A stretch of DNA of 30,415 nucleotides. It comes from a virus (lineage: Duplodnaviria > Caudoviricetes). The position numbers and the translations under genes were made by a program. Location: IMG/VR virus record IMGVR_UViG_3300033076_000518, positions 1 through 30,415 of that record, one strand, 5' to 3'. Below the pieces are notes generated by a model that saw only the letters and a list, made by a program, of their open reading frames with translations, was not told the origin of the DNA and did no database searches. Positions 4,367 through 28,260 of this stretch are shown here, piece by piece (within the stretch, counting starts at the first letter, position 1; each line of letters begins with the position of its first letter).

Positions 4367-4864
4367 TTAGAAAAATTCTTGTGCATTAAACATTCTTGGA
4401 ATTCTATTCGGTGTCAAATCATCGAACGGAACATATGGTGGTCTGAGTTGTTGTCCTGTTTCCATGAAGTGTTTTTTCTGAGTATCTAATAAACCTGATG
4501 GTACAGGAATCATTTCTGGGTCAATAATAGTTTCCGTTTCATCCCTTAGAGCATGAATACAACATACAGTTGTTTCGTCCTCCAAAGATTCGATTTGGTG
4601 TGCAGCATTCTTTGCAATCATAATCATTGCAGGTGCTTTATAGACAACCGGATCCAACAACTTCTTACTCTCATCATCATACAATTGGACAGATACAGAA
4701 CCTGACGCAACTAAACTTGCGTGTGAGTATGGGTGTCTGTGTCCTAATTCAATAATGCCTTTTTCTCTGAAGAACATTCGTCTAACATAGACGTTTGAGA
4801 GACAAGAAATTTGTATTTCTGGACCCTTCGGAGTGGCACCAATATTATATTCATTATGTTCCAT
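4367..4864 (-). CDS. Cupin-fold (RmlC-like) protein
   Basis: NVYVRRM.F...GHRHPYSH.SLV.SGSV and APAMI.I.K..AH.I.SLE...CCIH give a His-based cupin metal site. Confidence 0.7.
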   Translation of the reverse strand: MEHNEYNIGATPKGPEIQISCLSNVYVRRMFFREKGIIELGHRHPYSHASLVASGSVSVQLYDDESKKLLDPVVYKAPAMIMIAKNAAHQIESLEDETTVCCIHALRDETETIIDPEMIPVPSGLLDTQKKHFMETGQQLRPPYVPFDDLTPNRIPRMFNAQEFF

Positions 4865-5109: not shown

Positions 5110-5937
5110 TTAACTAAAAATTCGTATTTGATAATTGTTTGGACCATAGTTTGCTGTATGGTAAATTTGGAAGTACCAAGAGTTTCCATATGTTGGGTGG
5201 TTCCATCTACGTGGACCTGTTGTAACTTCAAAGTAACCTTGTGATGCGCCACCCCATAATACCCAATAATCAAAACCTATTGTGTACGAACCCAATGTCG
5301 ATGTTGAAGCTGGCATCCAGCAATCATCATATGCAGCACTTGCGGAAGAATTGATTGAACAAGAAAAGTTTTGTGCCCAACTACTGGTCAACAAAGTGGG
5401 TTTTGAACTAACGTTACTCCATGCAACACCACCAGCAGACGAAGCATAGTTAACACTCTTGTTTGCATCGGCTGTATTGTCTACACTACCCAAACCAACC
5501 TCAGACTTTGTGTAAGATGGTTTTGTTGACTGTTTTGCCCAAGCATACACATCAGAAGCTGGTGCCGAACCAGCAGTTGCTGCATAACTAACACTCTTGC
5601 TTGAGTCTGCTGTGTTATCTACGTTACCTAGGCCAACTTTGGATTTAGATAGTGATAACCATGATGGGTCCGAATATGAACTTGATGTGTATACACCATT
5701 TGTTACTGTTCCAGCATTACCACTAACACTTATACCATAAGTTTGACTGTTTGCAAGTTGTGTTGGAGTTAATACACCAGTAATTTGTGTGTTTGCAATA
5801 CTTGGAGTTGCATTACCAGCATACGTCAACCTACCCTGTGCATCAACTGTGAATACGGAATGTTGTGTCGAACCACCATATGTACCAGATGTAACCGCTG
5901 TATTGGCTAATGTTGAACTTGTGACTTTTGTTGTCAT
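5110..5937 (-). CDS. Short tail fibre / receptor-binding protein
   Basis: TVDAQGR module, two VGLGxVDNTAD repeats 46 aa apart, aromatic-rich C-terminal tip; ATGA/TAA overlap with the upstream gene. Confidence 0.75.
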   Translation of the reverse strand: MTTKVTSSTLANTAVTSGTYGGSTQHSVFTVDAQGRLTYAGNATPSIANTQITGVLTPTQLANSQTYGISVSGNAGTVTNGVYTSSSYSDPSWLSLSKSKVGLGNVDNTADSSKSVSYAATAGSAPASDVYAWAKQSTKPSYTKSEVGLGSVDNTADANKSVNYASSAGGVAWSNVSSKPTLLTSSWAQNFSCSINSSASAAYDDCWMPASTSTLGSYTIGFDYWVLWGGASQGYFEVTTGPRRWNHPTYGNSWYFQIYHTANYGPNNYQIRIFS

Positions 5938-6497
5938 TTAATTTTTCCTTCTAATTCTTCAACACGTTTCTTCAGTTCTTTGATAGCTGCAAATGAAATG
6001 GCACACAACTTTTCATAATCAACTGCCAAGGTTCCATCTGGTTTGGTTCTAATTGCCAATGGAAATACTGATTGTACGTCCTGAGCAATTACACCAAAGT
6101 CTTGTTTACGTACAAAGTAACCATCTTCACCGCCGTGGTCATTGATATATTCATCTGTCCAATCGAATGTTTTACCACCAACAGTATCAACAATGTCTAA
6201 AGCATCTTGAATATCTTCCACATTTTCTTTGAATTTTTTGTCTGATGTGTAGTAACCTGTAATATTATTGGTAGCACGAATTTCACCAGTTGTTGCCGTT
6301 GCAGCAGTACCAACACCAAGTGATGTTATCTGTGCGTTGCCGTTGGTTGCTGGTGTGTAACCTAAAGCAGTTGTAACCGCACTAGAATCAATACCACTAA
6401 TTGGTGTAAATCCCAATGCGCCTGTCACCATACTGGATGTTATACCAGTTGATGAAAGTGATAAGGCCACATTGGCCAAATTTCTATTGATTGTCAT
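5934..6497 (-). CDS. Short fibre-like protein with C-terminal peptidase S74 intramolecular chaperone
   Basis: SDKKFKENV, GVIAQDVQSVFP, VDYEKL and a terminal coiled coil AIKELKKRVEELE. Confidence 0.85.
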   Translation of the reverse strand: MTINRNLANVALSLSSTGITSSMVTGALGFTPISGIDSSAVTTALGYTPATNGNAQITSLGVGTAATATTGEIRATNNITGYYTSDKKFKENVEDIQDALDIVDTVGGKTFDWTDEYINDHGGEDGYFVRKQDFGVIAQDVQSVFPLAIRTKPDGTLAVDYEKLCAISFAAIKELKKRVEELEGKIK

Positions 6498-6923
6498 TTA
6501 GTTTGTCCTTTTAGTTCATCAACTTCTGCTTTAAGTTCTTTGATTGCTTCAATCAATAGTGGTATAATTCTTTCATAGTGAACTGTTAAATACTTGTCAT
6601 CAATTGGTGCAGGTACAACAACTTCCGGCAAAACTGCTTGAACTTCTTGTGCCGATACACCAACTTCTTTTTTGACGGTGTAACCTAATGCTTGTGCAGT
6701 TTCGTTGGCTTCATAGTAGAAACCATTTAGTGTCATTACTTTGTCCAAGGCACCTTCAATATTACCAATACGAGTTTTTAGGTTGTCGTCTGAGTAGTAT
6801 GCGGTGATGTTGTTTGTTGCACGAATTTCACCAGTTGTTCCTGACGCAGCAGTACCAACACCAAGTGAGGTTATTTGAGCACTTGCGTTTGTTGCAGGTG
6901 TATAACCTAAAGCAGTTGTTACC
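6274..6923. repeat. Imperfect direct repeat of about 105 bp (6274-6378 and 6819-6923)
   Basis: gcacgaatttcaccagttgtt...gcagcagtaccaacaccaagtga...taacctaaagcagttgt is present in both copies, 545 bp apart; it encodes VTTALGYTPATN.AQITSLGVGTAA..TTGEIRATNNIT. Confidence 0.9.
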
Positions 6924-9550
6924 ATTGAGGAAGTAATTCCTGTAATGTAACCAGTTGGGTTTGTACTGTTGTATGGTGTGAAACCTAATGCGGTAGTAAT
7001 TTGTGAACTGTTTAATGACAATCCTGTTGGTGCTGTCCAGGTTGGTTTACCTGTACCGCCACTTGTCAATAGGTAACCTGATGTACCAACATCCGTGTTA
7101 CTTGTTGTGTTTGCGGCAGATTGGTATAGAACTTGACCTGCGGCACCACCTTGTCCGCCTGTGTAACTTGGTGATACGTTGTTAACCAATGTAACTGTGT
7201 ATGCAAAAATGTCAACCAAATCACCTGATGCACAAGCTGCACCCAAAACAATGGCTGTTCCTGATGATGATGTGTAGTCTGCTGCACGTAATAGAACACC
7301 GTTTAGATAAACTTGTACGTAACCAACAGTATATGTTGCAGCAAATGATGTTTGACCAGCTGTGGCAGTATATGTGCTTCTAGTGAATGTTGTTGCACCG
7401 ATACCAGCAGAACCACCAGTAATCAATGTTGTTGTTGCACCAGTAACTCTACCGTATGCGTCAATTGTTAGAATAGGAGTTGTTGTGGATGAACCATAGT
7501 TACCTGCAATAACACCAGATGATGCCAATGGTGTGTTGGCTGACGATGTTACACGACCTTTGCCGTCAACGGTAATAACTGGGATAACCAAACCACCACC
7601 GAATGTACCTGCGGTTGCACCAGAGTCGCCCAACCTTGCAGTAGGAATTGTACCTGCGGTCAAGTTGGTTGCATTTGCACTAAATGCAGTTGTTGCAAAT
7701 GATGTGTTACTTGTGCCGCCTGCCATTGTAACACCTTGAACATCACCAGTGAATGTTGCACCAGCCAATGCAGCCTTACGGGTTTCAATGTCTTGGATTG
7801 CCAACTGAATTGTGTTAGCAGAAGAAACAATACCACTAAATGGTGCGGTAAATGTAATGTTGTTTGCGTAATATGGATTTACATAGTAACCATCCACTTC
7901 AATCAATATTGAATCACCGTTTGGTGGTGTTGTTGTGAATGATATTGTATTTGCGCTTTGGTTCAGAGAATATTCAGATTCAAATTGACGCACACCATTA
8001 ATATAAGCACGAACTTGTGTGCCTGTTGTGAAAGTTGGTGTGTTGTATGTGTTGCCTGTATAACCTGCTGCGCCGTTGGCAGTATAACTCAAACGTGTGG
8101 AGTTAATGGATGTTCCTGGAACTGCGCCTGAAGAACCACCCGTGCCACCTGCTGCCCAATAGAAGTTACCTGGACCACCTGTTGTCAAAACATAACCAGC
8201 TGTTGTACCAGTTGGCAAGATGTTTGTCAATGCCGAAGCTGCTGATGTTGCACCTGTACCACCTTGACTTAATGCCAAAGGAGTTGTTAGTGTCAATGAG
8301 TTGAATGTTGGTGATGCAGTTGTTCTTAAATCTTGTGAAGTGCTGATAGCAAATGTGTTTGAACCAACCGATGTGATTGTTACGCCGTTGTTACTTGAGA
8401 AAGTAACTGTGTTTGCGGTAAAAGATCCTGTTGTACCAACAAATGTGGCAGCAGCTGCGTTCGCCTTTGCATATGCAGCAGTTGCATATACACCAGGATA
8501 ATCATCGGTCAACATACGGTAATATGTCGATGTGCCAACGTTCTTCACATCGAAGTATGCACTGGACTCATTCCAACGAATGGATGCGTTTGCACCAGAT
8601 GAACCACGGTTAACTTCAAATGCACTTATTTGTCCTGTACCAGAACCAGCATTCAAAGTGAAGTTGTTTGAGTTGTAAACGGTTGAACCGTTGATAACAA
8701 AGTTACCACCAACACTTAATTGACCCACAGTTTGCAATGAACCTGCAAAAACTGTTGCACTATTTGCATCAAGTGATGATGAAATGTTTGCTGTTGGTGC
8801 AAACAATGAGGTGTTTGCTCGCAATATATCTGTATATGTTGTATCAGAAACACTTAGGTCTACTGTATTGATAGAAGTATTACCCTGCAAAGTGTCGGTG
8901 TAAGTTCTTCCTGAAACACTTGCTGTTACCGCTTTTAATATTTCTGTGTTAACTGAGTTGTTTGCTTGAACAACACCTGTAAGGATACTGGTGTTTGCTT
9001 GTATAACTTCAGTTAGAATACTGTTATTGGCCTGCAACGCATCAGTCAACATACTTGTGTTTGACTGCAATACATCTGTAAGAATGCTTGTGTTTGCTTG
9101 TAATGTTGCAGTCAAAACACTGGTGTTTGCCTGAACTTTATTTGTGGTTGTTGTGTAACGAACTGTTGAATTTCCACCAACATATGCATTGTTGGCCACA
9201 GACAAACCGATACCAGAACCTTGTGCAACCAATAGTCCGTTTATGTTTGCCTGACCTGCGTTAGTCAAACCTAGAGTAGTATTTGAAAAGTATACTTGGC
9301 CACCAACAGTTAAGTTGTTTTGGATCGAAGCGGAAGAACCTGTACCTTGTACCAACAGTTGTTTTTGTACTACAATGTTACCGTTAGCTTGTAAGGAGTT
9401 TTGAGTTGTTTCGTTTAGATACAAAGTTCCGGATGATTTGGTGTAATCACCAGCCGCCAGAATATTGTTCTCGGAAATTAATGAGTCGGTTGCAACCAAC
9501 CAATCACCAAACGTGTTGGCATAACTTAATGTTGTTATTGTATTAGCCAT
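6494..9550 (-). CDS. Long tail fibre protein with C-terminal peptidase S74 chaperone
   Basis: N-terminus NTFGDW...T is typical of baseplate-anchored fibres. G/T/S/N-rich shaft with VYxNGV Ig-like modules; C-terminus YYSDDNLK...GVSAQEVQAVLPE...VHYERIIPLLIEAIKEL. Confidence 0.88.
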   Translation of the reverse strand: MANTITTLSYANTFGDWLVATDSLISENNILAAGDYTKSSGTLYLNETTQNSLQANGNIVVQKQLLVQGTGSSASIQNNLTVGGQVYFSNTTLGLTNAGQANINGLLVAQGSGIGLSVANNAYVGGNSTVRYTTTTNKVQANTSVLTATLQANTSILTDVLQSNTSMLTDALQANNSILTEVIQANTSILTGVVQANNSVNTEILKAVTASVSGRTYTDTLQGNTSINTVDLSVSDTTYTDILRANTSLFAPTANISSSLDANSATVFAGSLQTVGQLSVGGNFVINGSTVYNSNNFTLNAGSGTGQISAFEVNRGSSGANASIRWNESSAYFDVKNVGTSTYYRMLTDDYPGVYATAAYAKANAAAATFVGTTGSFTANTVTFSSNNGVTITSVGSNTFAISTSQDLRTTASPTFNSLTLTTPLALSQGGTGATSAASALTNILPTGTTAGYVLTTGGPGNFYWAAGGTGGSSGAVPGTSINSTRLSYTANGAAGYTGNTYNTPTFTTGTQVRAYINGVRQFESEYSLNQSANTISFTTTPPNGDSILIEVDGYYVNPYYANNITFTAPFSGIVSSANTIQLAIQDIETRKAALAGATFTGDVQGVTMAGGTSNTSFATTAFSANATNLTAGTIPTARLGDSGATAGTFGGGLVIPVITVDGKGRVTSSANTPLASSGVIAGNYGSSTTTPILTIDAYGRVTGATTTLITGGSAGIGATTFTRSTYTATAGQTSFAATYTVGYVQVYLNGVLLRAADYTSSSGTAIVLGAACASGDLVDIFAYTVTLVNNVSPSYTGGQGGAAGQVLYQSAANTTSNTDVGTSGYLLTSGGTGKPTWTAPTGLSLNSSQITTALGFTPYNSTNPTGYITGITSSMVTTALGYTPATNASAQITSLGVGTAASGTTGEIRATNNITAYYSDDNLKTRIGNIEGALDKVMTLNGFYYEANETAQALGYTVKKEVGVSAQEVQAVLPEVVVPAPIDDKYLTVHYERIIPLLIEAIKELKAEVDELKGQTK
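8935..9135 (-). repeat. Six tandem 11-aa (33-bp) repeats QANTS[IV]LTxx[LIV]
   Basis: QANTSVLTATL QANTSILTDVL QSNTSMLTDAL QANNSILTEVI QANTSILTGVV QANNSVNTEIL. Confidence 0.9.
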
Positions 9551-9771: not shown

Positions 9772-11427
9772 TTACAATCCTGTTCCTGATGGTAGTGCAA
9801 TTGTTCGCATGTCTTTTACAAACGGTGCGAATGTGGAATCAGAGGACGACATAACAATCTTAATCATGTATTGGTAATATGATGTGTATGAGAAACCAGT
9901 TTTCTTACTTGTGTAACTCAATGCATTATCTGCAACACCATTTACACCAGGTGCAGCTTCATACTCAACAATGTTGTTCATTGAACTAGAGTATGTGGAA
10001 CCACCACTAACTAATGTCATTAATTGCCAATCACCATCGTTGATTGTTTGAGTATCTTCTCTAGCAACAACTTTGTAGTATACATTAATGTCTGTGTTCA
10101 CTGGTCTGTAAGCGGAGAAGAACACACGTAAGTCACCTGAATCATTACCTTCAGTCAAAGTAACTGGTTGTGTTACGTATCTTGCCAGACCATTACCACC
10201 AGTTGCGGAAGTTTCGCCGTTGATTTGTACTATGGATTGTGTGGTATTTGATGGTGTAACTGAGACTGTTGGTGTGGTTAAATAACCAGAACCTTCTGTT
10301 GTCACATAAACACTTACGATGTTGCCCATGTATACGTTTGCTGACACATATGCCTGTGAACCCCAAACTGCATCTGGTGCTGATACTGTAATATCGGGAT
10401 AAGATAGTGTGGTGTTTCCGTTTGCTGAATAACCTGTACCACCATTCACCAAGATGATATTATCGTTGGCAATACCCATGTTGTTGATGCGATAACGTGT
10501 TGTGAATAGTGTCAAACCATCCTCAGACACAACAGGACTTACAGAATCATCTGTACTTGCCAATGTTGCTTGCAATTTGAATGATGTATTTGACTGATAA
10601 TTCAATACACGACTACCTTTGTTGTCGTTCAGGTAAATATCTTCTGGCTTTGGCGTGCCATATTTACCAGGATTAACTGCGTATGGACCATCCGAATCAC
10701 CACTTGTTAGTGTTGATGTATATTGATAGTTGACCGATGTTCCTGGTGGTGTGAAGTCTGTTGTGGACACATTCAATGCATCATACAATGAGTTGGATGT
10801 GGCCGTTGCCATATTGTTTTCGATGGTTTTACGTTGTGGTAGACCTGCTGGTACCACAAAGGACAATGTTGGTGATGCTGATGTGGTAAATTTACATCTG
10901 TTGATAACAAACATCAAGTCTTTCAACAGGTCAGCTGTCCATGTCATACCGTTTTGTGATTCGAACAAGTCACCGATGTAAGGTGTCTTTGTAATCTTAG
11001 TTGCTACGGTTGGGTTTGGATCGGTGTATTCTGCCTTGGATGTGGACAACAATGCAGAATCATTCTGTTGTGCCATCCACATAGTGTATTCACTTGAACT
11101 AGACTGAACCACAAACGCATACAATACGTTAGGGTTGATATAAACCGGAGAAGAAAATGTGAACTTTGTGTATGTGCTTGGATCTTTGTGGTGTGGGTTC
11201 TCTGATACGTTAACTTGATTTGCATCTAGTGAAACGACTGAGTAATCCAAAGATGAACCAACTGGGTAACCATTCAAGGTTGGAACAATACACAATTCGA
11301 TTGGAATATTTGTAGAAGGTTTTGTACGGAAGAACAGACAAATGGAACTCAAAAAGGTTCCATTAGGGTAGTTTGCACCATCAATAATAAATGTCTGTGC
11401 TACAGGATCAATAAGTTTCGTTGTCAT
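9772..11427 (-). CDS. C-terminal part of the VrlC/DUF4815-type virion protein, encoded as a separate ORF
   Basis: Begins MTTKLIDPVAQTF..G.FLSSI.LFF.TK; contains GDLFESQNG.TWTA...DLMF and ends IKIVM.S....P.VKDMRTIAL. Has its own AAGGA RBS. Confidence 0.85.
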   Translation of the reverse strand: MTTKLIDPVAQTFIIDGANYPNGTFLSSICLFFRTKPSTNIPIELCIVPTLNGYPVGSSLDYSVVSLDANQVNVSENPHHKDPSTYTKFTFSSPVYINPNVLYAFVVQSSSSEYTMWMAQQNDSALLSTSKAEYTDPNPTVATKITKTPYIGDLFESQNGMTWTADLLKDLMFVINRCKFTTSASPTLSFVVPAGLPQRKTIENNMATATSNSLYDALNVSTTDFTPPGTSVNYQYTSTLTSGDSDGPYAVNPGKYGTPKPEDIYLNDNKGSRVLNYQSNTSFKLQATLASTDDSVSPVVSEDGLTLFTTRYRINNMGIANDNIILVNGGTGYSANGNTTLSYPDITVSAPDAVWGSQAYVSANVYMGNIVSVYVTTEGSGYLTTPTVSVTPSNTTQSIVQINGETSATGGNGLARYVTQPVTLTEGNDSGDLRVFFSAYRPVNTDINVYYKVVAREDTQTINDGDWQLMTLVSGGSTYSSSMNNIVEYEAAPGVNGVADNALSYTSKKTGFSYTSYYQYMIKIVMSSSDSTFAPFVKDMRTIALPSGTGL

Positions 11428-11857
11428 TTAATTCCTTCGGTATGTTATTTTCTTTTTCAAGAACGTCTAACATATTATTTATTAGATGTTTTGCATCTTC
11501 TTTCTTGTTTTCTACCAGTGCGGCCACTACATTCCTTATGTGTCTGTAATTGATTCCGCTATAAATTGATATTTGTTCGTGATAAGGTTTACTCAAAATT
11601 CCCATCTTAGTAATCAACTTATCACATCTAACATAATACTCCACATTATCTTCTTCAGTTGAGTTATCTCTAAAATCTCTCAACAGTTGGACTTCTTTGT
11701 TGGTGTAATCACCAATACCATAATGTGTGATGTTGTATACAAAACAATTTTCTTGTCTACTCAATAATGTGGTCACACAATGTTCTTCATTCCCATGTTC
11801 CGCACAATGAGGACATGCCTCTTTTTGTGCGAAATATTCTTCAACGGTTATACCCAT
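11408..11857 (-). CDS. Stand-alone CFI-box-CTERM-like protein with an N-terminal CxxC/His cluster
   Basis: CFV....YG......EVQLLRDFRD......VEYY fits the recalled pattern CFIATAxYG...EV..LR.FRD...YY; N-terminus contains CPHCAEH....HC. Confidence 0.65.
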   Translation of the reverse strand: MGITVEEYFAQKEACPHCAEHGNEEHCVTTLLSRQENCFVYNITHYGIGDYTNKEVQLLRDFRDNSTEEDNVEYYVRCDKLITKMGILSKPYHEQISIYSGINYRHIRNVVAALVENKKEDAKHLINNMLDVLEKENNIPKELNDNETY

Positions 11858-11860
11858 ATG

Positions 11861-14800
11861 TTACTCGTATAGTTTCTTCCAAGATTTCTTAGCGTACTTG
11901 GTTGTTACAACTGCACCAGTTACCATAAATGCGGCAATCCAGAACAATGAGTTTGGAATGGACAATGCATTGAACTTCTTACCCATCACCATTTGTGTAC
12001 CGTTATTCCAAGACCATGTTGCATACTTTTCAAACACCTTGTTGTCACTACGCAACGCAGGAACCAACAACTTAGAACCGATAACTTGGTAACCACGGCG
12101 GAAGCATTCACCCAATGTCTTATTGTGTAGATACTTTTCACACCATTCAATCAAAGTATTCTTCTGATTGTCTGACCAGATACCTTTAGTGTTCAATGCA
12201 GTTGCAACCACACAACAACCACCGCCACCGGATGGAGGAGCAGTTCTAGTTTCTTTCACAATGACATTTTCTTTTCTTTCGATTGTTGTCTTTGTGTTCT
12301 TTGCAGAAGAAACGGATGCAGAGTAGTTAACTTCTTGTGACTTAGTTGCCAAACCTTGTGCGTGGAACTTAGCTTCCGCATAGGTAGTTTCTGAACCATT
12401 ATTGTAGAAGAAGTCGTTTGCGCCTTGTGATACCACACGGTTGTCAATACGGAACATTCTTTCACCAGAATGGAAGTAACCACCAGGCAATGTGAACACA
12501 CCAGAGATACTACCATTTTCGTTTGTTGTCAATGGTCCAATGGAGTATGTGTCGCCAGCAGAGTAGGAGATATTTCTATCCAAAGTTGCCACTTTTGTTG
12601 TGGTGTTGTATGCAGAAATGGTTGCCTTAGAACCATTTGGAATAGAAGACACACCAGTTTCAGAACCTGCAACAATCCACAAGTCTAGACCTGTGTAAAT
12701 GTCTGTTGTAGATGCCAATGAAGATGACAAGTTGATTGTGTTGGTGTTTGTGCCAACAGCAATTGTTTTACCTGAGTAGTGTACGGTCGAATCTTTGATG
12801 CCAGATGCACTACTACTTTGGTAAACACCAGAAGTGTTGAACTTGGCGTTAACGATTGTTGAACCGTAATTGGTTGTATTCAAGTCATCGACAACATACA
12901 AACGAACATTGCCATTTGTATATCTGTAAACGTCTGTAACGTAACCTGTCTTATAGAAAACAGAACTTGAAACATAACCAATAACGTCACCTGCTTGGAA
13001 TGTTCCAGATACACTTGACAATTCGATGATGTTTGGTTTTCTTACCAAACGAGTCACACGTTTGTCATCAAAGAAGGCGTTAACTGTTGTGTTGAACAAC
13101 AAACCTTTTGCTTGGAACATAATGTACTGTCCACGGATATATGGAAGAATACTTACGTTGGTGATATAGTTGCCGGTTTGGTTATAAGACTGTGACCAGT
13201 AACCATATGTGTATTGGTTTGTCTTGGTTGCAGTTGTTGTTTCAACGGTATAGTTGGCCTCATCTGTCCAAGTTGTGGTCTTTTCTGTACCTGGAATTGA
13301 TTGCCAGTCAGCAACAGATAATGTTGGGTTACCTTCCAACAAGTTCAAACTCTTTGATGCTTCGTATGTTTTTAGGTTTGGATCAACAAACAACAACGAT
13401 GGTTGTGTGTCATTGTCCACCCAGTTATCAACCGGTGGTGTCAATGTGATTGTACCGATTGCACTAGAAACTGCAAATGGGTTTACGTTAATTGTACGAC
13501 TTGCAAGTGCTTGTGTTGCGATTGGTTGTTCTGTATATGGCAAAGTATACATTGGAGACAAACCAAGTTGTGATGCCTTGTAACTCAAAGAGTTGAATGT
13601 TGCATCAGATAGGTTCGAACCGTGTGCGTACAACAGATTCTGGTTGTGCAATGCATAGTTTTTAACCAACAAAGCAGGAGACAAATACTGCAAACGTGTG
13701 TTGATAGATGCAGAGAAGTCGTCGTTGAATGTATCACCAACGGAGAATGTGGAGAAGTCATCTACCAAAATACCATTCTTAAATCTGTTCAGACCATTCG
13801 CATCTGGGATTTGCAAGTTGGATGCTTTTTGTTCCAACAGGTTCAATGATGCGTAGTATTCTAGGTTGTTAACACGTGTTTGTAGGTCGGAAATATCGCT
13901 GAACGCCCAACGTTTGTGTAGAACAGGTTGAATATTTACGTTTGATGCCTTACCTGCCACTTGTCCTGGAACATATGCTGTGTATGGATCAAGTGTGATG
14001 TTGGCCAACAACAGAGAACCTTCTGGTGTAACTGGTATGATTGGATTGATTGCTGGTTTACCTTCAATCAACTTGATTGCCTTGTCTTTACCGATAATCA
14101 AAATGTCTCTACGACCCAAGTAGTATGTGTAGTTAGAAACAAATGTTGATAGGTCAGCAGGCAAGAATAGACCAGAGTTGTTGGTGCTTGTTGGTGTTAC
14201 TTTGTAACGGAACACAAACGAACCTTGACCATTCAATACAGCAGGTCTAAAGTCCAAACAATCTTTCAATTCGTAGTTGATACGATTTGATGAGAAGTAT
14301 GTTGGGCGTTCTGTGAAACCAACGTTACTGTATGATTGTGCAGAGAAGTAACCATCACCACCAGAATGTTCGTAGTGGTCAAATAGAATCCACAATGACA
14401 ATGGTTTTGGTTTACCTGGTTTCAATGTGATGTATGCGTGACCATAGTAACTGTCTGTCTGACCATTGTTGAATGTGAAATGACTTGTTACGTCTGTACC
14501 TGTTGTCAACATTGATACGTTCGGTGTTCCTGTTCCTGTATCAATGATTTTAACGATACGTTTAACGTCAGAAACATATAGACTTTGGTTATTACCATAA
14601 TCTAAAACACTACCTTGAGCAATCCAGATTTGACCATTTGTTAGGTCAACGTGTGTGCCATTAACGATACCATCTGGACCATAGTAACTTTCAATACTTG
14701 TGTTTGCTTCAACCAATGTTTTGGTCTTCAACACATAGTTGGTATCACTAGCGTTAGTTACGTTAAGTTTGGTGTAGATTGTTGCAACAAATGGATTCAA

Positions 14801-16900
14801 ATCCAATGCAGTCAAGTATACACCATTCTTGTCTGTATCAACAGCAATAGTTCTACCTGCAGCGGTGAAGTCGATAATATCACCGTTGTTGATAGTTGTG
14901 TTTGTCAACTTGTCTGTAACAACAACCACCCAGTTTTGTTTGATTGCGTCAATAGATTCCGTTGCACCAGTTCTAATCAGGTCAAATGTACCTGTTGTGG
15001 ATGGATCCAACTGTAAGTAACGGCGTGAACCAGTTGAGTAAGAACCAAAAGATTGTGCTCTAAATTCTTGTGCAGTTGTGTAGAAGGTATCTGTTACAGT
15101 TGCAACATATGGATTACCCAATGGGAAAATCAATTGTGGATTATTCGTGCTGAATAGTTGTGTGTCACCTGATGGAACAGTATTTGTTTTACCCAAAGAA
15201 CTCATACTTGCACTTGATGATAGTGTGCATGGTGTTCCTACTGTTGCTTGCACAACAGTTTCAAAATCAGCAACAGAGAATCGCAATGAGAATGTGTCGC
15301 CTGCACCTGGTGTGGTGTTAAATGGATATTCAACAGTTGCAGTATGTGTGCTGCCATCATAAGAAACGATTTGTCTTGTGTCACCAGCATCAACACCAGA
15401 ATCAATTGTCAATGTCACACCAATGTATGCGTTTGCAATATTGGAGAATTGGCCGTTGTAGGTGTTTGTGAATGTGATTGTAGATGATGTTGCAGAAGCA
15501 ACCAAACCACTCAACACTTTGTTTGAAACATCATACATGTGTGCTTTATACACATATGTTCTTGTGTTGGACGAATCTGATGCTTGAACATAAGACAAAC
15601 AGCGAATGTAACCAGTGCCTGCAAGTGTTGCATTGTAGGCAGTTGTGTTGGCTTTATTGATGTTAGATACACCAACTGTGTGGAAATCTACCGCATGTCC
15701 AGTTGTAATGTCGAAGAAACTACCACTCTGTCCTTTTACATCCTCAACATACAAATAGTTACCATAGTCAATGAAGTTGCCGTTGTTATCAACCGCTTCT
15801 GTTTCTCTTGCTCTATTAGATTCAATCTTAATTGTAGATTGGTTCTCTGCACGGTAACCCTGTACGTATGCAATACCAGGACCTACTGACAGAGTGTATG
15901 TGTCTGCGTTGATTGAGTTGGCGGATGGAGTAATTTTGAAATCGTTAACGATGTAATCACCGTTAGTTTCATGTGTTCTCTTGGCAAAGTAATCATCAAT
16001 TACAGAATATACTGTGTTGTCAACTTGTTTAACAACGTTACCCTCATCCACACGGATAAGTTCCACGAATTGGTCATCGTTACCCAATGTCAATGGAAGA
16101 GTTGTTAGTGTCAGGTTGATTTGATAACGGTCTGCACCTGGAGCCTGATAGTTTGATGCACCAACCGCTGGATCCAACAATGAACTGTCGTTGATGTAGT
16201 CAACAATAGTTTCTGTGATTGATAAACCGACACGATAAGATGGTGTGTTGCTGTATTTGTCTAGGATAACTGTCTGTGGTTGAACAGAAACGAAGTTACC
16301 GATAGAATACTTTGTGAAAGTACCATCATCATTTGCTGTGGATGATTGAGAATAACCATTCACAATGTAGAAAACACCTTCAGAGATAGATGCAACAGAA
16401 GATGGTCCAACACCAGTTGTACCACCAGCAGTACCAATAATTGTGGCAGAGATATTTGTTCCATCAACTGGGAAAATATCCATCGCATCGGTGAAGTGTG
16501 TACCTGTCAAGTAGGTAACAATCAATGTAGGTGGGTCACCAGCATCAACGGTAGTACCTGTAGCTTCTGCGGTCTTGATAACCTTGGCCAAGATACTGCC
16601 AGTAGAATCCATAATCAGTTTGTTTACAAAGTCTTGTGCAACAACGTTTGTGTTATTGTACTGTCTGTTTAGTTTCAGATAGTAACAGTTCAAGTTTGTT
16701 GTTACTTTACCGCCAGTTACTGGAGTATTCTGTGTAAAGATGTTGTCAGCAAACTTGGAGATTTGACTTTGTAGGATGGTTTGAGATTGTGTTAATTCTC
16801 TAGCCTGAACCGCTGCACCTGGTTTGAACAGAATACGATGGAAGTTTTTACTTTGGTCAAAGTCATCGTAATATGGATCAACGTTAAAATTCAGAGACAT
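11861..16900 (-). CDS. VrlC/DUF4815-type large baseplate-associated protein, N-terminal part, with a Cys-initiated C-terminal domain
   Basis: NFNVDPYYDDFD..KNFHRILFKPG.AVQARELTQ.Q, APGADRY, RV.NLEYYASLNLLE, NRFKNGILVDDF; located after gp8. Confidence 0.9.
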   Translation of the reverse strand: MSLNFNVDPYYDDFDQSKNFHRILFKPGAAVQARELTQSQTILQSQISKFADNIFTQNTPVTGGKVTTNLNCYYLKLNRQYNNTNVVAQDFVNKLIMDSTGSILAKVIKTAEATGTTVDAGDPPTLIVTYLTGTHFTDAMDIFPVDGTNISATIIGTAGGTTGVGPSSVASISEGVFYIVNGYSQSSTANDDGTFTKYSIGNFVSVQPQTVILDKYSNTPSYRVGLSITETIVDYINDSSLLDPAVGASNYQAPGADRYQINLTLTTLPLTLGNDDQFVELIRVDEGNVVKQVDNTVYSVIDDYFAKRTHETNGDYIVNDFKITPSANSINADTYTLSVGPGIAYVQGYRAENQSTIKIESNRARETEAVDNNGNFIDYGNYLYVEDVKGQSGSFFDITTGHAVDFHTVGVSNINKANTTAYNATLAGTGYIRCLSYVQASDSSNTRTYVYKAHMYDVSNKVLSGLVASATSSTITFTNTYNGQFSNIANAYIGVTLTIDSGVDAGDTRQIVSYDGSTHTATVEYPFNTTPGAGDTFSLRFSVADFETVVQATVGTPCTLSSSASMSSLGKTNTVPSGDTQLFSTNNPQLIFPLGNPYVATVTDTFYTTAQEFRAQSFGSYSTGSRRYLQLDPSTTGTFDLIRTGATESIDAIKQNWVVVVTDKLTNTTINNGDIIDFTAAGRTIAVDTDKNGVYLTALDLNPFVATIYTKLNVTNASDTNYVLKTKTLVEANTSIESYYGPDGIVNGTHVDLTNGQIWIAQGSVLDYGNNQSLYVSDVKRIVKIIDTGTGTPNVSMLTTGTDVTSHFTFNNGQTDSYYGHAYITLKPGKPKPLSLWILFDHYEHSGGDGYFSAQSYSNVGFTERPTYFSSNRINYELKDCLDFRPAVLNGQGSFVFRYKVTPTSTNNSGLFLPADLSTFVSNYTYYLGRRDILIIGKDKAIKLIEGKPAINPIIPVTPEGSLLLANITLDPYTAYVPGQVAGKASNVNIQPVLHKRWAFSDISDLQTRVNNLEYYASLNLLEQKASNLQIPDANGLNRFKNGILVDDFSTFSVGDTFNDDFSASINTRLQYLSPALLVKNYALHNQNLLYAHGSNLSDATFNSLSYKASQLGLSPMYTLPYTEQPIATQALASRTINVNPFAVSSAIGTITLTPPVDNWVDNDTQPSLLFVDPNLKTYEASKSLNLLEGNPTLSVADWQSIPGTEKTTTWTDEANYTVETTTATKTNQYTYGYWSQSYNQTGNYITNVSILPYIRGQYIMFQAKGLLFNTTVNAFFDDKRVTRLVRKPNIIELSSVSGTFQAGDVIGYVSSSVFYKTGYVTDVYRYTNGNVRLYVVDDLNTTNYGSTIVNAKFNTSGVYQSSSASGIKDSTVHYSGKTIAVGTNTNTINLSSSLASTTDIYTGLDLWIVAGSETGVSSIPNGSKATISAYNTTTKVATLDRNISYSAGDTYSIGPLTTNENGSISGVFTLPGGYFHSGERMFRIDNRVVSQGANDFFYNNGSETTYAEAKFHAQGLATKSQEVNYSASVSSAKNTKTTIERKENVIVKETRTAPPSGGGGCCVVATALNTKGIWSDNQKNTLIEWCEKYLHNKTLGECFRRGYQVIGSKLLVPALRSDNKVFEKYATWSWNNGTQMVMGKKFNALSIPNSLFWIAAFMVTGAVVTTKYAKKSWKKLYE

Positions 16901-25372: not shown

Positions 25373-26176
25373 TTAGGAATTTGCCAACCTTGTCTTTATC
25401 TTGTTTGTGCCGATATGTGTGTTGATGAGATCCGTTTCAGTTTGACCTAAATTGGAAAAACTGCTAACCGCACCATATCTGTCCATAACCATCTTTGTGT
25501 TGGTATAGAAATTAATGTCTTGTTGACGATATGTTGTCATCATGTTATGGATCGAATTTGCAACATCATACAACGCATTTGCATCGGATGAAGAAATTGA
25601 AGAATTTGTCGTATTTGTCGTTGCTGTCAAAATATTGGTATATGACAGTAATGTGTTGGCATTCGCATTTATCGCATTTGCCTGAAATATGCTAGTAAAA
25701 CTACCAATCATTGGTGAGTTGTTTTGTATGTTATCTGTCTTATTCGTCAAATACATCATCATTTTACCATATCCAATGGATGTTTGGTAATGGGGATAAC
25801 CAATTTCAGCGTCCATAGGCACAACATTCGACATACGGTTGGTGTGCAACATGAAGTTATTTGCTGTGGCTGTGGATATTGTGCTTGCTAGACTGAATAT
25901 ATTACCTAGTTTTGTGGTGATATAATCACTTGTTCCTGTTTGGTTATTGGCCAACGCTGCAATCGTGTTTGCACAGTTCCATACAATTTGTGTACCTGAT
26001 TGTGCAGGGTTTTGATAATAACCATCGGTATTGGCAGTTGCAATGTCTTCCTGTTGCCATGTGTTCACTAGAGTCGGCATAAGATTCATTTGCACCAAAA
26101 CAGTTGGTGACAAATCTTGCACCATAGATTGTGCTGATGATGGAAAACCCAATAAAGAATAGATACTTGAACTCAT
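25373..26176 (-). CDS. Hypothetical helical protein between the spike gene and gp25
   Basis: 267 aa, ATGA overlap with the spike gene; N/T/S-rich; no motif recognised. Confidence 0.75.
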   Translation of the reverse strand: MSSSIYSLLGFPSSAQSMVQDLSPTVLVQMNLMPTLVNTWQQEDIATANTDGYYQNPAQSGTQIVWNCANTIAALANNQTGTSDYITTKLGNIFSLASTISTATANNFMLHTNRMSNVVPMDAEIGYPHYQTSIGYGKMMMYLTNKTDNIQNNSPMIGSFTSIFQANAINANANTLLSYTNILTATTNTTNSSISSSDANALYDVANSIHNMMTTYRQQDINFYTNTKMVMDRYGAVSSFSNLGQTETDLINTHIGTNKIKTRLANS

Positions 26177-27018
26177 GCCGATGTTTCCTGAGGTGTTGGA
26201 GGACCAGATGGACCCTTAGGTGTTGGATGAATATGCACTTTACGTAACATTTCATTCACAACGTCAAATGATAGAATAGAACCAGAAGTGCCGAATGTTG
26301 CGGTTGGTGAAATCATACTAGAATATGATGTAATTGCACCGACACACACAATTTGACCTGGAAGTGCAACAGGTTGACCAATACTCAGTCCACCAGTTGT
26401 AGATACGAAACCCAATGCACCAGCAGAAACACCAGTTCCTGCATCAACACGGGTTTTGGAAGTGATTAGTTTGCCTGTAATTGCACCAGATACACTAAGG
26501 TCACCAGTTAGGTTGATGTAATCTGGCACATTGATTGTCAATTTACCTAATGTGGATGCACCAGCATTGATTTCCATGTTACCGAATGATGATACAGAGT
26601 GACGACCTTCTACGGTTTGTGTGAAATTGCCTTTGATGTATTGTTCCACAGAACCATCCACCTGTTCAATCTTGTTACCTGTGATGTGCATATACGCATC
26701 ACCATAGACCGTAATATTCAGTTTCTTTGCATTTAGACCATCATCCACACCAATGGAGATATTGTGGTCACCTAGTGTAATCGAATACCCATCACGTATA
26801 ATCTTGTGTACTTCGTCACCATTTGGATGCATTTCCAAAAAGGTGCCTTTGCCGTGTTGTATACGGACACGTTCACGTGTTGGTGTATCATCCATTTCAA
26901 ATGAATGACCACCTTTAGTTTGTGTTACGTTATTATATGGATAGACAGGTTGGTAATTTGTATTCGCTGCCGATTCGGGTTCTGTCCATGCACTTACAAA
27001 ATCTGGTTTATCACTCAT
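26173..27018 (-). CDS. gp5: gp5 C-terminal part: beta-helix central spike with HxH tip
   Basis: YPYNNV..T..GH.FEMDDTP..ERVR..H..GTF.EMHP.G, VxG repeats, and terminal VHIHPTPKGPSGPP. Confidence 0.88.
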   Translation of the reverse strand: MSDKPDFVSAWTEPESAANTNYQPVYPYNNVTQTKGGHSFEMDDTPTRERVRIQHGKGTFLEMHPNGDEVHKIIRDGYSITLGDHNISIGVDDGLNAKKLNITVYGDAYMHITGNKIEQVDGSVEQYIKGNFTQTVEGRHSVSSFGNMEINAGASTLGKLTINVPDYINLTGDLSVSGAITGKLITSKTRVDAGTGVSAGALGFVSTTGGLSIGQPVALPGQIVCVGAITSYSSMISPTATFGTSGSILSFDVVNEMLRKVHIHPTPKGPSGPPTPQETSA

Positions 27019-27920
27019 GGTCTACCTTCTTTCGATGTTGCCTTTTGTAAGTCAGTTGCTTGCGAGTTAACATCTGTTGATGATGGTGTTGTGGAATTTA
27101 TATAACTTGTTACAGAATCAGCAACACTTGCGTCTGATAATGCAGCTGCAACTGCCGTTGGCATAGCATCACTTGATTGATTCAAAGAATCTGTCAAACT
27201 GGATTGTGTTAGTGTTGCAGCTGCAGCAAATTGTGCAGAAATCATTTCAACTTGTGCCTTTGACATGCTGGCAATTTGGTCTGGTATAGACTTGAATGTG
27301 TTTGCAATTTGTTTGATTGAGTTTGTGAAGTTTGACAAACATTGCAGCAACATATTCTTCAATTTTTCTGGTAGACTTTGTATCCAGTCTATCAGTTGTT
27401 TGATTTGTTGTGCGAAAAAGATCCATTCTGCAACTTCTTCAATCTTTTCTGCCACATATTCCACCGCTTCATTGACTTTTCTGACCAAGTCTTTACCAAT
27501 AGAGAATGCTAGTGACAGGGATCCTGAGGGATCCAATCCAAACGCATCTAATAACTTATCAATGATTGCACGTGCAGTCTTTGCTGCATCTTTCAGTAAT
27601 GCTCTCATTCTATTGGTTGCCTTCAACTTTGCATTTTGTAAGGCCTTTTGAATCGCTTCGACTGGATTAACCAATCCCAAAGTATCAAAATTTAGATTGA
27701 ATATGAATTTGAAATCACAGGCGTGTGCCAAGTTACCATTCATAAGTTGAATGGCTGAGTAATTTAAGTTTCCTCTTGCCAATGCAGGTGTCGTTTGTGA
27801 ACCTGGAGTGCTCATCAACTTTGCAAAAGGTGAATTTGGTGGTAGTGTCTCAACCACTTTCAAGTTGACTAGGTTGAAACCACCAACGTTTACTTGATAA
27901 TCTTTTTGTGTTGTTGCCAT
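27015..27920 (-). CDS. Alpha-helical protein between the two gp5 parts (probable gp5 middle segment)
   Basis: TTPALARG resembles the gp5 post-OB linker; long amphipathic helices; no lysozyme motif seen. Confidence 0.65.
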   Translation of the reverse strand: MATTQKDYQVNVGGFNLVNLKVVETLPPNSPFAKLMSTPGSQTTPALARGNLNYSAIQLMNGNLAHACDFKFIFNLNFDTLGLVNPVEAIQKALQNAKLKATNRMRALLKDAAKTARAIIDKLLDAFGLDPSGSLSLAFSIGKDLVRKVNEAVEYVAEKIEEVAEWIFFAQQIKQLIDWIQSLPEKLKNMLLQCLSNFTNSIKQIANTFKSIPDQIASMSKAQVEMISAQFAAAATLTQSSLTDSLNQSSDAMPTAVAAALSDASVADSVTSYINSTTPSSTDVNSQATDLQKATSKEGRP

Positions 27921-27921
27921 C

Positions 27922-28260
27922 TTAAATTACCGTATTGTTTGTTTTCTTATCATCTTCAGTTGGTATAAAACCTGGTAATACACCCATTATGATAGGAAAC
28001 TGTGCTGCTTCTCCGTCCATGAAGAAACCGACAACCCAATCACCTAGTTCTGGTGCAGAGAATGTCTTGGATGCATTGCATGGAACCAATGGTGTTGCCC
28101 ATGGCAAATCTTTTGTTGGAACTTTCAATGCAGTATCTTGGTTGCCATCATCGTGCCAACCGAATATTCGAACCTGACATTTACCGAGGCCGAGTGGATC
28201 CATTCTGTTCTCAACAGTACCTATCCACCAAATGAAACCTTCTTTACCTAAAAAACTCAT
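27922..28260 (-). CDS. gp5: gp5 N-terminal OB-fold domain, stand-alone
   Basis: F.WWIG.VE.R.DPL.LG.C.VRIFG.H...LPWA...GDWVVGFFMDG..AQ.P.IMG.LPG. Confidence 0.92.
   Translation of the reverse strand: MSFLGKEGFIWWIGTVENRMDPLGLGKCQVRIFGWHDDGNQDTALKVPTKDLPWATPLVPCNASKTFSAPELGDWVVGFFMDGEAAQFPIIMGVLPGFIPTEDDKKTNNTVI

What the first reader, a model, noticed from the sequence alone, without database searches (positions are those of the whole stretch)
9772..12240. VrlC/DUF4815 gene split by a two-part Cys-box cassette: candidate protein processing or ligation system
Seen: the 1679-aa ORF loses its structural character at ...ETRTAPPSGGGG|CCVVATAL and ends 118 aa later. A 149-aa ORF with CFV..YG..EV.LLRDFRD..YY follows. 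A new ORF with its own AAGGA RBS then restarts at IDPVAQTF. Known (from recall): in cyanophage-type T4s the DPxAQ[ST]F region is normally continuous with the upstream DUF4815 chain, and Gly-Cys junctions are the cleavage sites of Hint/Hedgehog autoprocessors. Inference: the roughly 800-bp cassette provides a non-Hint Cys-nucleophile module. It may cleave at G|C and either release the N-terminal part or join it to the separately translated C-terminal part, in the manner of a split intein.
Basis: partly seen in the sequence, partly recalled or inferred. Interest (0 to 1): 0.85.

Follow-up and report, generated by a model that had tools for sequence, protein, structure and literature searches.

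The report
Cysteine-led cap cassette splitting baseplate gene
In this freshwater-type T4-like phage, the gene for a large baseplate protein is cut in two by a conserved, mobile two-gene insert whose cysteine-led helical cap is likely trimmed off at a glycine-cysteine bond with help from its partner protein, rather than stitching the two halves back together.

Summary
The VrlC/DUF4815 baseplate-tripod gene is split at the linker before DPVAQTF by a 790-bp insert: a 118-aa Cys-led C-terminal cap plus a 149-aa partner gene. Both are under purifying selection, and the layout recurs in 17 of 38 cap loci. The cap is not a Hint: it is predicted all-helical (pLDDT 92) and is a distant, below-cutoff relative of the CFI-box. 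It also ends other virion proteins, often without the partner. The partner was always directly behind a cap (49 of 49 loci). All 30 distinct partner-linked caps, of two cap types, begin Gly-Cys, against 4 of 14 caps without a partner. Split-intein-like ligation of the halves is unlikely: most relatives are unsplit, some are split here with no cap, others carry in-frame Hints here, and the second half has no IntC-like part. Best reading (0.4): an optional cap cut at Gly|Cys with the partner's help, the halves assembling non-covalently. No cleavage is shown; a retained thiol- or metal-bridged tag is nearly as likely. The scan noted this cassette before on another genome (e1-5728379). Ten paper searches found no description.

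The parts
11861..16900 (-). Gene for the N-terminal part of the VrlC/DUF4815 baseplate tripod homologue (1561 aa) fused to the cap (1679 aa in all)
   Evidence: PF16075 E 1.6e-61; PHROG 358 positions 5-1415; phage 812 tripod protein 9euf E 1.1e-26
12218..12241 (-). Pro/Gly tether APPSGGGG before the cap
   Evidence: Sequence. Length varies in relatives, but the last Gly is kept in 30 of 30 partner-linked caps
12212..12217 (-). Cys pair: C1562 (first after the Gly run, tied to presence of the partner) and C1563 (invariant in the cap family)
11864..12217 (-). Cys-led cap, 118 aa, predicted six-helix domain, basic (pI 9.6), Trp-rich; conserved C1563, T1567, W1586, G1603, Y1604, G1662; distant CFI-box relative
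   Evidence: AlphaFold2 pLDDT 92; conservation; hhalign against NF041770-type proteins, probability 67.5, E 5e-5, 66 columns; composition
11408..11857 (-). Partner gene, 149 aa, acidic (pI 5.1): Met-Gly start, CxxC...HC segment, then a CFI-box-like helical part from C38
   Evidence: C15, C18, C27, C38 invariant in 56 sequences; predicted helical, pLDDT 86; NF041770 15.8 bits against cut-off 40; hhalign probability 60.5, E 8e-5, 34 columns
11433..11437 (-). AAGGA ribosome-binding site of the C-terminal gene, inside the end of the partner gene
   Evidence: Sequence; AGGA kept before the start codon in the window and all 11 relatives printed
9772..11427 (-). Gene for the C-terminal part of the tripod homologue (551 aa), starting MTTKLI-DPVAQTF
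   Evidence: PHROG 358 from position 1421; in an unsplit relative this region aligns to 9euf residues 769-951

Best explanation
The insert is an optional, mobile two-gene cassette that ends the first half of the baseplate tripod protein with a cysteine-led helical cap, which is likely cut off at the Gly|Cys bond with the partner protein's help, while the separately made second half likely joins the first without a covalent bond. Shown: the gene is split at a variable linker; cap and partner are conserved under purifying selection; the cassette occurs on unrelated virion genes; the tripod gene also occurs whole, plainly split, or with a Hint at this linker. Inferred: the acidic partner binds the basic cap and engages the first Cys (C1562) through its own invariant cysteines. 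Inferred: an N-to-S acyl shift at Gly1561|Cys1562 followed by hydrolysis or thiolysis frees a mature N-half ending PPSGGGG. Inferred: the cap serves transiently in folding or assembly, as a removable tag. It would work like a Hint/BIL cleavage cap without being one.
For: Gly-Cys starts all 30 distinct partner-linked caps, of two cap types, even where the tether is not Gly-rich (NNDG|C, TEDG|C, SSG|C), against 4 of 14 caps without a partner. The partner follows a cap directly in 20 of 20 viral and 29 of 29 metagenome loci (four of the latter show only the cap's end). Cap and partner have opposite charge. dN/dS is 0.04-0.28 for the cap (10 of 12 pairs, 2 saturated) and for the partner (12 pairs), against 0.06-0.24 for the host N-half. 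In-frame Hints occupy the same linker in L035, L310, L353 and L394 (profile-confirmed for L035, by motif for the others). Hints directly precede distant caps in P0215, P0251 and P0282. The cap is C-terminal on many hosts: 114-127 residues from Cys to the end in 147 close hits. The halves need no ligase: plain splits with no cap exist.
Against: No cleavage was observed. The predicted all-helical fold is unlike the self-cleaving domains I recall, and there is no invariant His (H1592 in 179 of 241). The family-invariant Cys is C1563; C1562 is present in 132 of 147 close and 2 of 97 distant caps. The related IICT-type cap has Lys, Ser or Arg at the C1563 position and a Cys three residues on (homology only E 8e-4), which fits a thiol placed in space better than a scissile-bond nucleophile. 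Seven caps at the second site keep the first Cys with no partner next to them. The 30 of 30 count is not 30 independent events: the partner-linked CC caps form one weakly supported group (82) and the IICT ones a second, so about two origins.
Confidence: 0.4

Rival explanations
1. Retained handle. The cap is never cut. It stays on the N-half as a basic amphipathic domain that binds membrane or the partner, its cysteines being lipidated or sharing a zinc ion with the partner's CxxC...HC segment (a zinc clasp), and so places or times baseplate assembly.
For: A Cys near the first helix is kept although its sequence position shifts between cap types. Four invariant Cys in the partner. Cap pI 9.6, six Trp and a hydrophobic stretch 1648-1666, mean hydropathy 1.56. 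Lipidation of an invariant Cys is the model proposed for MYXO-CTERM tags (PMC11980579, passages read).
Against: It does not explain why the Gly before the Cys is fixed when the partner is present. Hints placed before caps would release them (P0215). The host has no evident signal peptide (sequence).
Confidence: 0.3
2. Effector and immunity pair. The cap is a membrane-active cargo carried on virion proteins and the partner neutralises it during assembly, as in polymorphic toxin cassettes (architecture recalled, not from a call).
For: Variable C-terminal module after a Gly tether or Hint, with a small, oppositely charged gene directly behind it. One of 12 caps weakly hits the aureocin A53 bacteriocin model (E 0.029).
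Against: 14 of 44 distinct caps with context have no partner next to them. One partner family serves two very different cap types and is itself CFI-like and sometimes fused to a cap.
Confidence: 0.12
3. Split-intein-like trans-ligation. A thioester at Gly|Cys is attacked by the N-terminus of the C-half, which restores one chain.
For: The break removes almost nothing from the host. The C-halves start Met-Thr, Met-Ser or Met-Ala, so a free small N-terminus is expected after Met removal. The cassette also cuts a Gly-rich domain at profile position 111-112 of 226.
Against: No IntC-like part on the C-half. Plain splits at this site (L295, L358, L381/L429) and upstream (L264/L452, L291/L431, L400) lack any cap. 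L068 has no downstream half and L100's downstream piece has its own cap. Many hosts carry the cap at their natural end.
Confidence: 0.06
4. Selfish passenger. The module spreads by recombination at Gly-rich linkers and is kept only because it must stay folded or removable, with no benefit to the phage.
For: At least three insertion sites in DUF4815 genes and several unrelated hosts. Caps at the two main sites belong to different lineages although the hosts are sister groups.
Against: It is retained across a deep clade (51-79% host identity to the window) with low dN/dS. No nuclease or other mobility gene lies in the cassette.
Confidence: 0.12

Closest known systems
CFI-box-CTERM domain (NCBIfam NF041770)
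   Same: Cys-led C-terminal domain after a Gly-leaning linker. Cap and bacterial CFI-box profiles align from the Cys on, with Cys1, Thr5, Gly and Tyr in register. The partner shares YG...LR.FRD...YY.
   Different: Both score far below the 40-bit cut-off. Here they form a two-gene cassette that splits virion genes, and the partner adds a Met-Gly start and CxxC...HC. No paper naming the CFI-box was found.
Hint superfamily: bacterial intein-like (BIL) domains and Hedgehog C-terminal domain
   Same: Cys-led module at a host's C-terminal junction; occupies the same linker in relatives (L035, L310, L394). BILs give mostly cleaved products (PMC7664689, passages read).
   Different: The cap is predicted all-helical and is shorter (118 aa), has no block-B His or terminal His-Asn, and has a dedicated partner gene.
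VrlC/DUF4815 (PF16075, PHROG 358); phage 812 tripod protein gp119/ORF65 (PDB 9euf)
   Same: The host is a homologue. The tripod is a trimeric multi-domain baseplate protein with putative receptor-binding domains that move on contraction (PMC13433997, passages and section 15 read).
   Different: The solved protein is one 1152-aa chain. Here it is encoded as two genes, broken just before the motif that lies near residue 791 of 9euf. Domain borders were not found in the text or the one supplement held, so which tripod domain starts there is not established.
Cys-containing C-terminal sorting tags (MYXO-CTERM and myxosortase)
   Same: An invariant Cys near the C-terminus is needed for cleavage by a separate protein (PMC11980579, passages read).
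   Different: Those are short motif, transmembrane helix and basic tail signals on exported proteins, cut by an intramembrane protease. This is a folded 118-aa domain on phage structural proteins with a small soluble partner.

Membership tests
Hint / intein / BIL | Cys or Ser at the first position after the host chain | tested here: met
   C1562-C1563 follow the Gly run
Hint / intein / BIL | Mainly beta-strand Hint fold (recalled) | tested here: not met
   The AlphaFold2 model, pLDDT 92, has six helices and no strand. This is a prediction.
Hint / intein / BIL | Match to Hint or intein profiles; block-B His; terminal His-Asn | tested here: not met
   No Pfam or NCBIfam Hint or intein hit for cap or partner, while L035 does hit. 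No invariant His. The chain ends KKLYE.
Split intein | IntC fragment and a +1 nucleophile at the start of the second gene | tested here: not met
   Only 5-6 variable residues precede DPxAQ in the site-A C-halves
Split intein | Ligated product | not testable with these tools
   Needs biochemistry or virion mass spectrometry
CFI-box-CTERM (NF041770) | Score at or above 40 bits | tested here: not met
   Partner 15.8 bits (1 of 56 members hit). Cap: no hit in the window, 1 of 12 members at E 0.11. Ten of ten motif-found control proteins scored 75-112 bits.
CFI-box-CTERM (NF041770) | Remote homology by profile comparison | tested here: inconclusive
With the selected motif removed, 19.3 and 24.7. 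Cap against partner directly gave nothing.
CFI-box-CTERM (NF041770) | C-terminal position on varied hosts | tested here: met
   (cap only; the partner is a separate gene)
MYXO-CTERM-type sorting tag | Short Cys motif followed at once by a transmembrane helix and basic tail | tested here: not met
   The only hydrophobic stretch begins 85 residues after the Cys, inside a predicted helical bundle
MYXO-CTERM-type sorting tag | Cys lipidation and a cognate intramembrane protease | not testable with these tools
   The record is an 18% complete fragment
VrlC/DUF4815 tripod | Profile match and position in the baseplate gene cluster | tested here: met
   neighbours match gp6, gp8, gp25, gp53, gp5 and tail fibres
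Polymorphic toxin and immunity pair | Toxic C-terminal domain neutralised by the next gene | not testable with these tools
   Only the gene order fits

The most novel reading that the evidence does not exclude
An all-helical, non-Hint protein-processing system: the partner triggers thioester formation at Gly|Cys of any virion protein that carries the cap and resolves it by transpeptidation, for example onto its own conserved N-terminal Gly (55 of 56) or another nucleophile. That would give the first biochemical function for CFI-box-like domains, which a pattern scan estimated in about 4800 stored stretches of prokaryote genomes.
Probability: 0.12. Interest if true: 0.9.

Novelty: new variant of a known kind. 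Interest (0 to 1): 0.6.

Why it matters
CFI-box-like domains are common in bacteria, archaea and phages, and I found no paper on them. This cassette supplies what the family lacks: a dedicated partner gene, a junction (Gly-Cys) that is fixed when the partner is present, and natural controls (whole, plainly split and Hint-bearing versions of the same gene). That makes a simple fusion assay decisive. If the cap is cleaved, it is a new small helical processing module of possible use as a protein tag. If it is not, it defines a new assembly handle on virion proteins. It also shows that the VrlC tripod tolerates being made as two chains.

Tried and rejected
Fold searches gave no clear solved match for the cap: Foldseek PDB best E 2.6; VIA-align best Z 4.4, rmsd 3.1, 71 aligned, to IpaH-type ligase domains, which is below the noise level for helical bundles and was not used. 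This does not show a new fold. In BFVD the cap model matched unnamed phage proteins (TM 0.47-0.73, best E 0.009) and the partner one unnamed 113-aa protein (E 0.0015). The wide PDB search for the partner never ran. Complex prediction of cap and partner was not available, so binding is untested. PDB sequence searches with both alignments gave only chance hits; the cap profile there was diluted by Gly-rich leaders. ESM Atlas gave only unnamed viral clusters, best 0.90; the partner query did not complete. The partner was not found elsewhere in 5 of 5 records with second-site caps, but these are 13-46% complete. No RNA holder listed. No cassette-skipping joint was seen in four contig sets, only one of which covered the region. 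Promoter and terminator scans were near chance. The CPHC resemblance to a DsbA site (recalled) was dropped because the inner residues vary. The DPLAQ survey covered 3 of 64 parts of the collection and, by requiring Leu, excludes the window's own DPVAQ clade; no cap or partner hit was found in its 120 loci. The host tree is the quick tree, midpoint-rooted, on the first 1150 residues of 39 rows, and its groups were sampled by different queries. Literature: ten searches found nothing on this cassette in the listings; the library lacks most subscription papers.
Full report
Observation. The window is a 30.4-kb fragment (18% complete) of a T4-like tail and baseplate operon on the minus strand. The three ORFs, the PPSGGGG|CCVVATAL junction, the 118-residue tail, the 149-aa partner and the AAGGA site before MTTKLIDPVAQTF are all as described. 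PHROG 358 is matched to position 1415 by the first ORF and from 1421 by the third, so one gene is split by a 790-bp insert. The host is homologous to the phage 812 tripod protein (9euf), a trimeric baseplate protein with putative receptor-binding domains (PMC13433997: passages and section 15 read; its one held supplement gave no domain borders). VrlC is described as replacing gp7 in pelagimyophage and cyanomyophage baseplates (PMC7029224: passages).

What occupies the site in relatives. With the C-half as query, 26 of 27 loci are one continuous ORF; one of these, L035, has an in-frame Hint directly before DPLAQSF, while its near-identical sister L036 has none. Of the 80 best loci of 570 in a wider scan, 72 are continuous over the flank held and 8 are split: one with cap and partner at this site, three with caps about 165 residues upstream, and four with no cap. 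A pattern survey gave 120 confirmed loci. L295, L358 and L381/L429 restart 1-6 residues before the motif; L295's upstream ORF is a VrlC N-half with a plain tail, L429's tail also lacks a cap, and only the last 100 codons of L358's are visible. So the tripod can be encoded whole, plainly split, Hint-bearing or capped. Splitting is uncommon but does not need a Cys module, which argues that the halves assemble without ligation (inference).

The cap. It is a widespread C-terminal domain: 148 longer proteins and 176 cluster representatives match it. The 38 viral loci fall into 17 at this site with the partner, 10 at a second site in the same gene without it (one cut by the contig end), 2 cutting a Gly-rich tail-gene domain and 1 ending another gene, all three with the partner, and 8 ending other genes without it. 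A third DUF4815 site is seen in P0200, and P0215 has two Hints followed by a distant cap. Caps at the two main sites are different lineages. AlphaFold2 gives a confident six-helix domain with no strands. Conserved among 241 aligned caps are C1563 (241), T1567 (234), W1586 (239), G1603 (240), Y1604 (241) and G1662 (238); the set was chosen by starting at a Cys, so that count is partly built in. There is no invariant His. The residue before C1563 is Cys in 132 of 147 close hits but 2 of 97 distant ones.

Relation to the CFI-box. I collected 122 proteins by a recalled CFI motif; ten of ten tested pass NF041770. Their profile aligns to the cap over 66 columns from the Cys (probability 67.5, E 5e-5) and to the partner over 34 (60.5, E 8e-5), well above shuffled and reversed controls, but weaker once the selected motif is removed. 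Neither part reaches the family cut-off, and cap and partner do not align to each other. I treat both as probable distant relatives, not members. A second phage cap type (K/S-IICT) aligns weakly to the cap (E 8e-4, score 26 against at most 16 in 20 shuffles) with its Cys shifted three residues.

The partner. It has 49 close homologues, four invariant cysteines, Gly at position 2 in 55 of 56 and a helical model. It lay directly behind a cap in all 20 viral and all 29 metagenome loci (these sets overlap), behind either cap type, and some copies are fused to a further IICT-type cap. Among distinct caps with context, all 30 followed by a partner begin Gly-Cys, against 4 of 14 without one (one at a contig edge and three inside partners were set aside). 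Kinship reduces this to about two independent associations. Cap and partner are oppositely charged and both are under purifying selection like the host.

Mechanism. The fixed Gly-Cys bond, the dedicated cysteine-rich partner and the exchange with Hint domains at one linker point to processing at that bond, with release of the N-half (0.4). BIL domains likewise give mostly cleavage (PMC7664689: passages). Against this stand the helical fold, the lack of a His and the shifting Cys, which suit a retained metal- or lipid-binding handle (0.3; compare MYXO-CTERM, PMC11980579: passages). An effector-immunity pair (0.12), a selfish passenger (0.12) and ligation of the halves (0.06) remain open. No chemical step is shown here.

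Novelty. Searches for the CFI-box by four spellings and its accession gave no papers; the other seven searches listed nothing on this cassette, judged from titles and abstract starts. The scan recorded the same cassette on another genome (e1-5728379), from which I reuse the word 'cap'; my odds were set before I saw it. Several notes on Hint-capped split VrlC genes gave the tripod lead, which I checked. These notes are not independent support. I rate it a new variant of a known kind, interest 0.6, with a 0.12 chance of a new transpeptidation chemistry.

Noticed in passing
window 26173-28260 (-): The gp5 spike gene also appears split: a 112-aa OB-domain ORF (27922-28260) and a 281-aa C-terminal ORF (26173-27018), with a 301-aa ORF of no clear family between them.
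   Followed up: no
window 5934-9550 (-): Two consecutive tail-fibre genes each end in a Peptidase_S74 chaperone domain, a known self-removing C-terminal module, just downstream of the split gene.
   Followed up: no
L035 943-7668 and L036 1387-7668: Near-identical hosts (branch lengths 0.003) differ by an in-frame Hint at the same linker, which suggests a recent gain or loss.
   Followed up: partly
L070-L075, L078-L081, L383, L384, L388: Second split site inside what looks like a hairpin loop; both halves have gained short extensions, and different cap types occupy it.
   Followed up: partly
L099 5001-5834; L122-L124, L129; P0311: Partner fused to a further IICT-type cap and followed by a conserved 59-aa ORF.
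   Followed up: partly
L100 5421-6152: The downstream piece of the split Gly-rich gene ends in a near-copy of the upstream cap.
   Followed up: partly
L103 9757-11904 (Roseobacter phage CRP-1 gp49): A cultured phage has a distant cap on the gene after the portal, the only hit among 50,697 phage records; a practical test case.
   Followed up: partly
L136 around 601: A true CFI-box is preceded by a stretch that looks like an HNH motif ending His-Asn, possibly an intein end (motif recalled, not tested).
   Followed up: no
L137, L139, L140: CFI-boxes with no hydrophobic tail follow TPR-like sequence, so the family is not only a membrane tag.
   Followed up: no
window 4367-4864 (-): A 165-aa ORF with a weak cupin match (E 0.0016, below cut-off) lies among the tail-fibre genes.
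   Followed up: no
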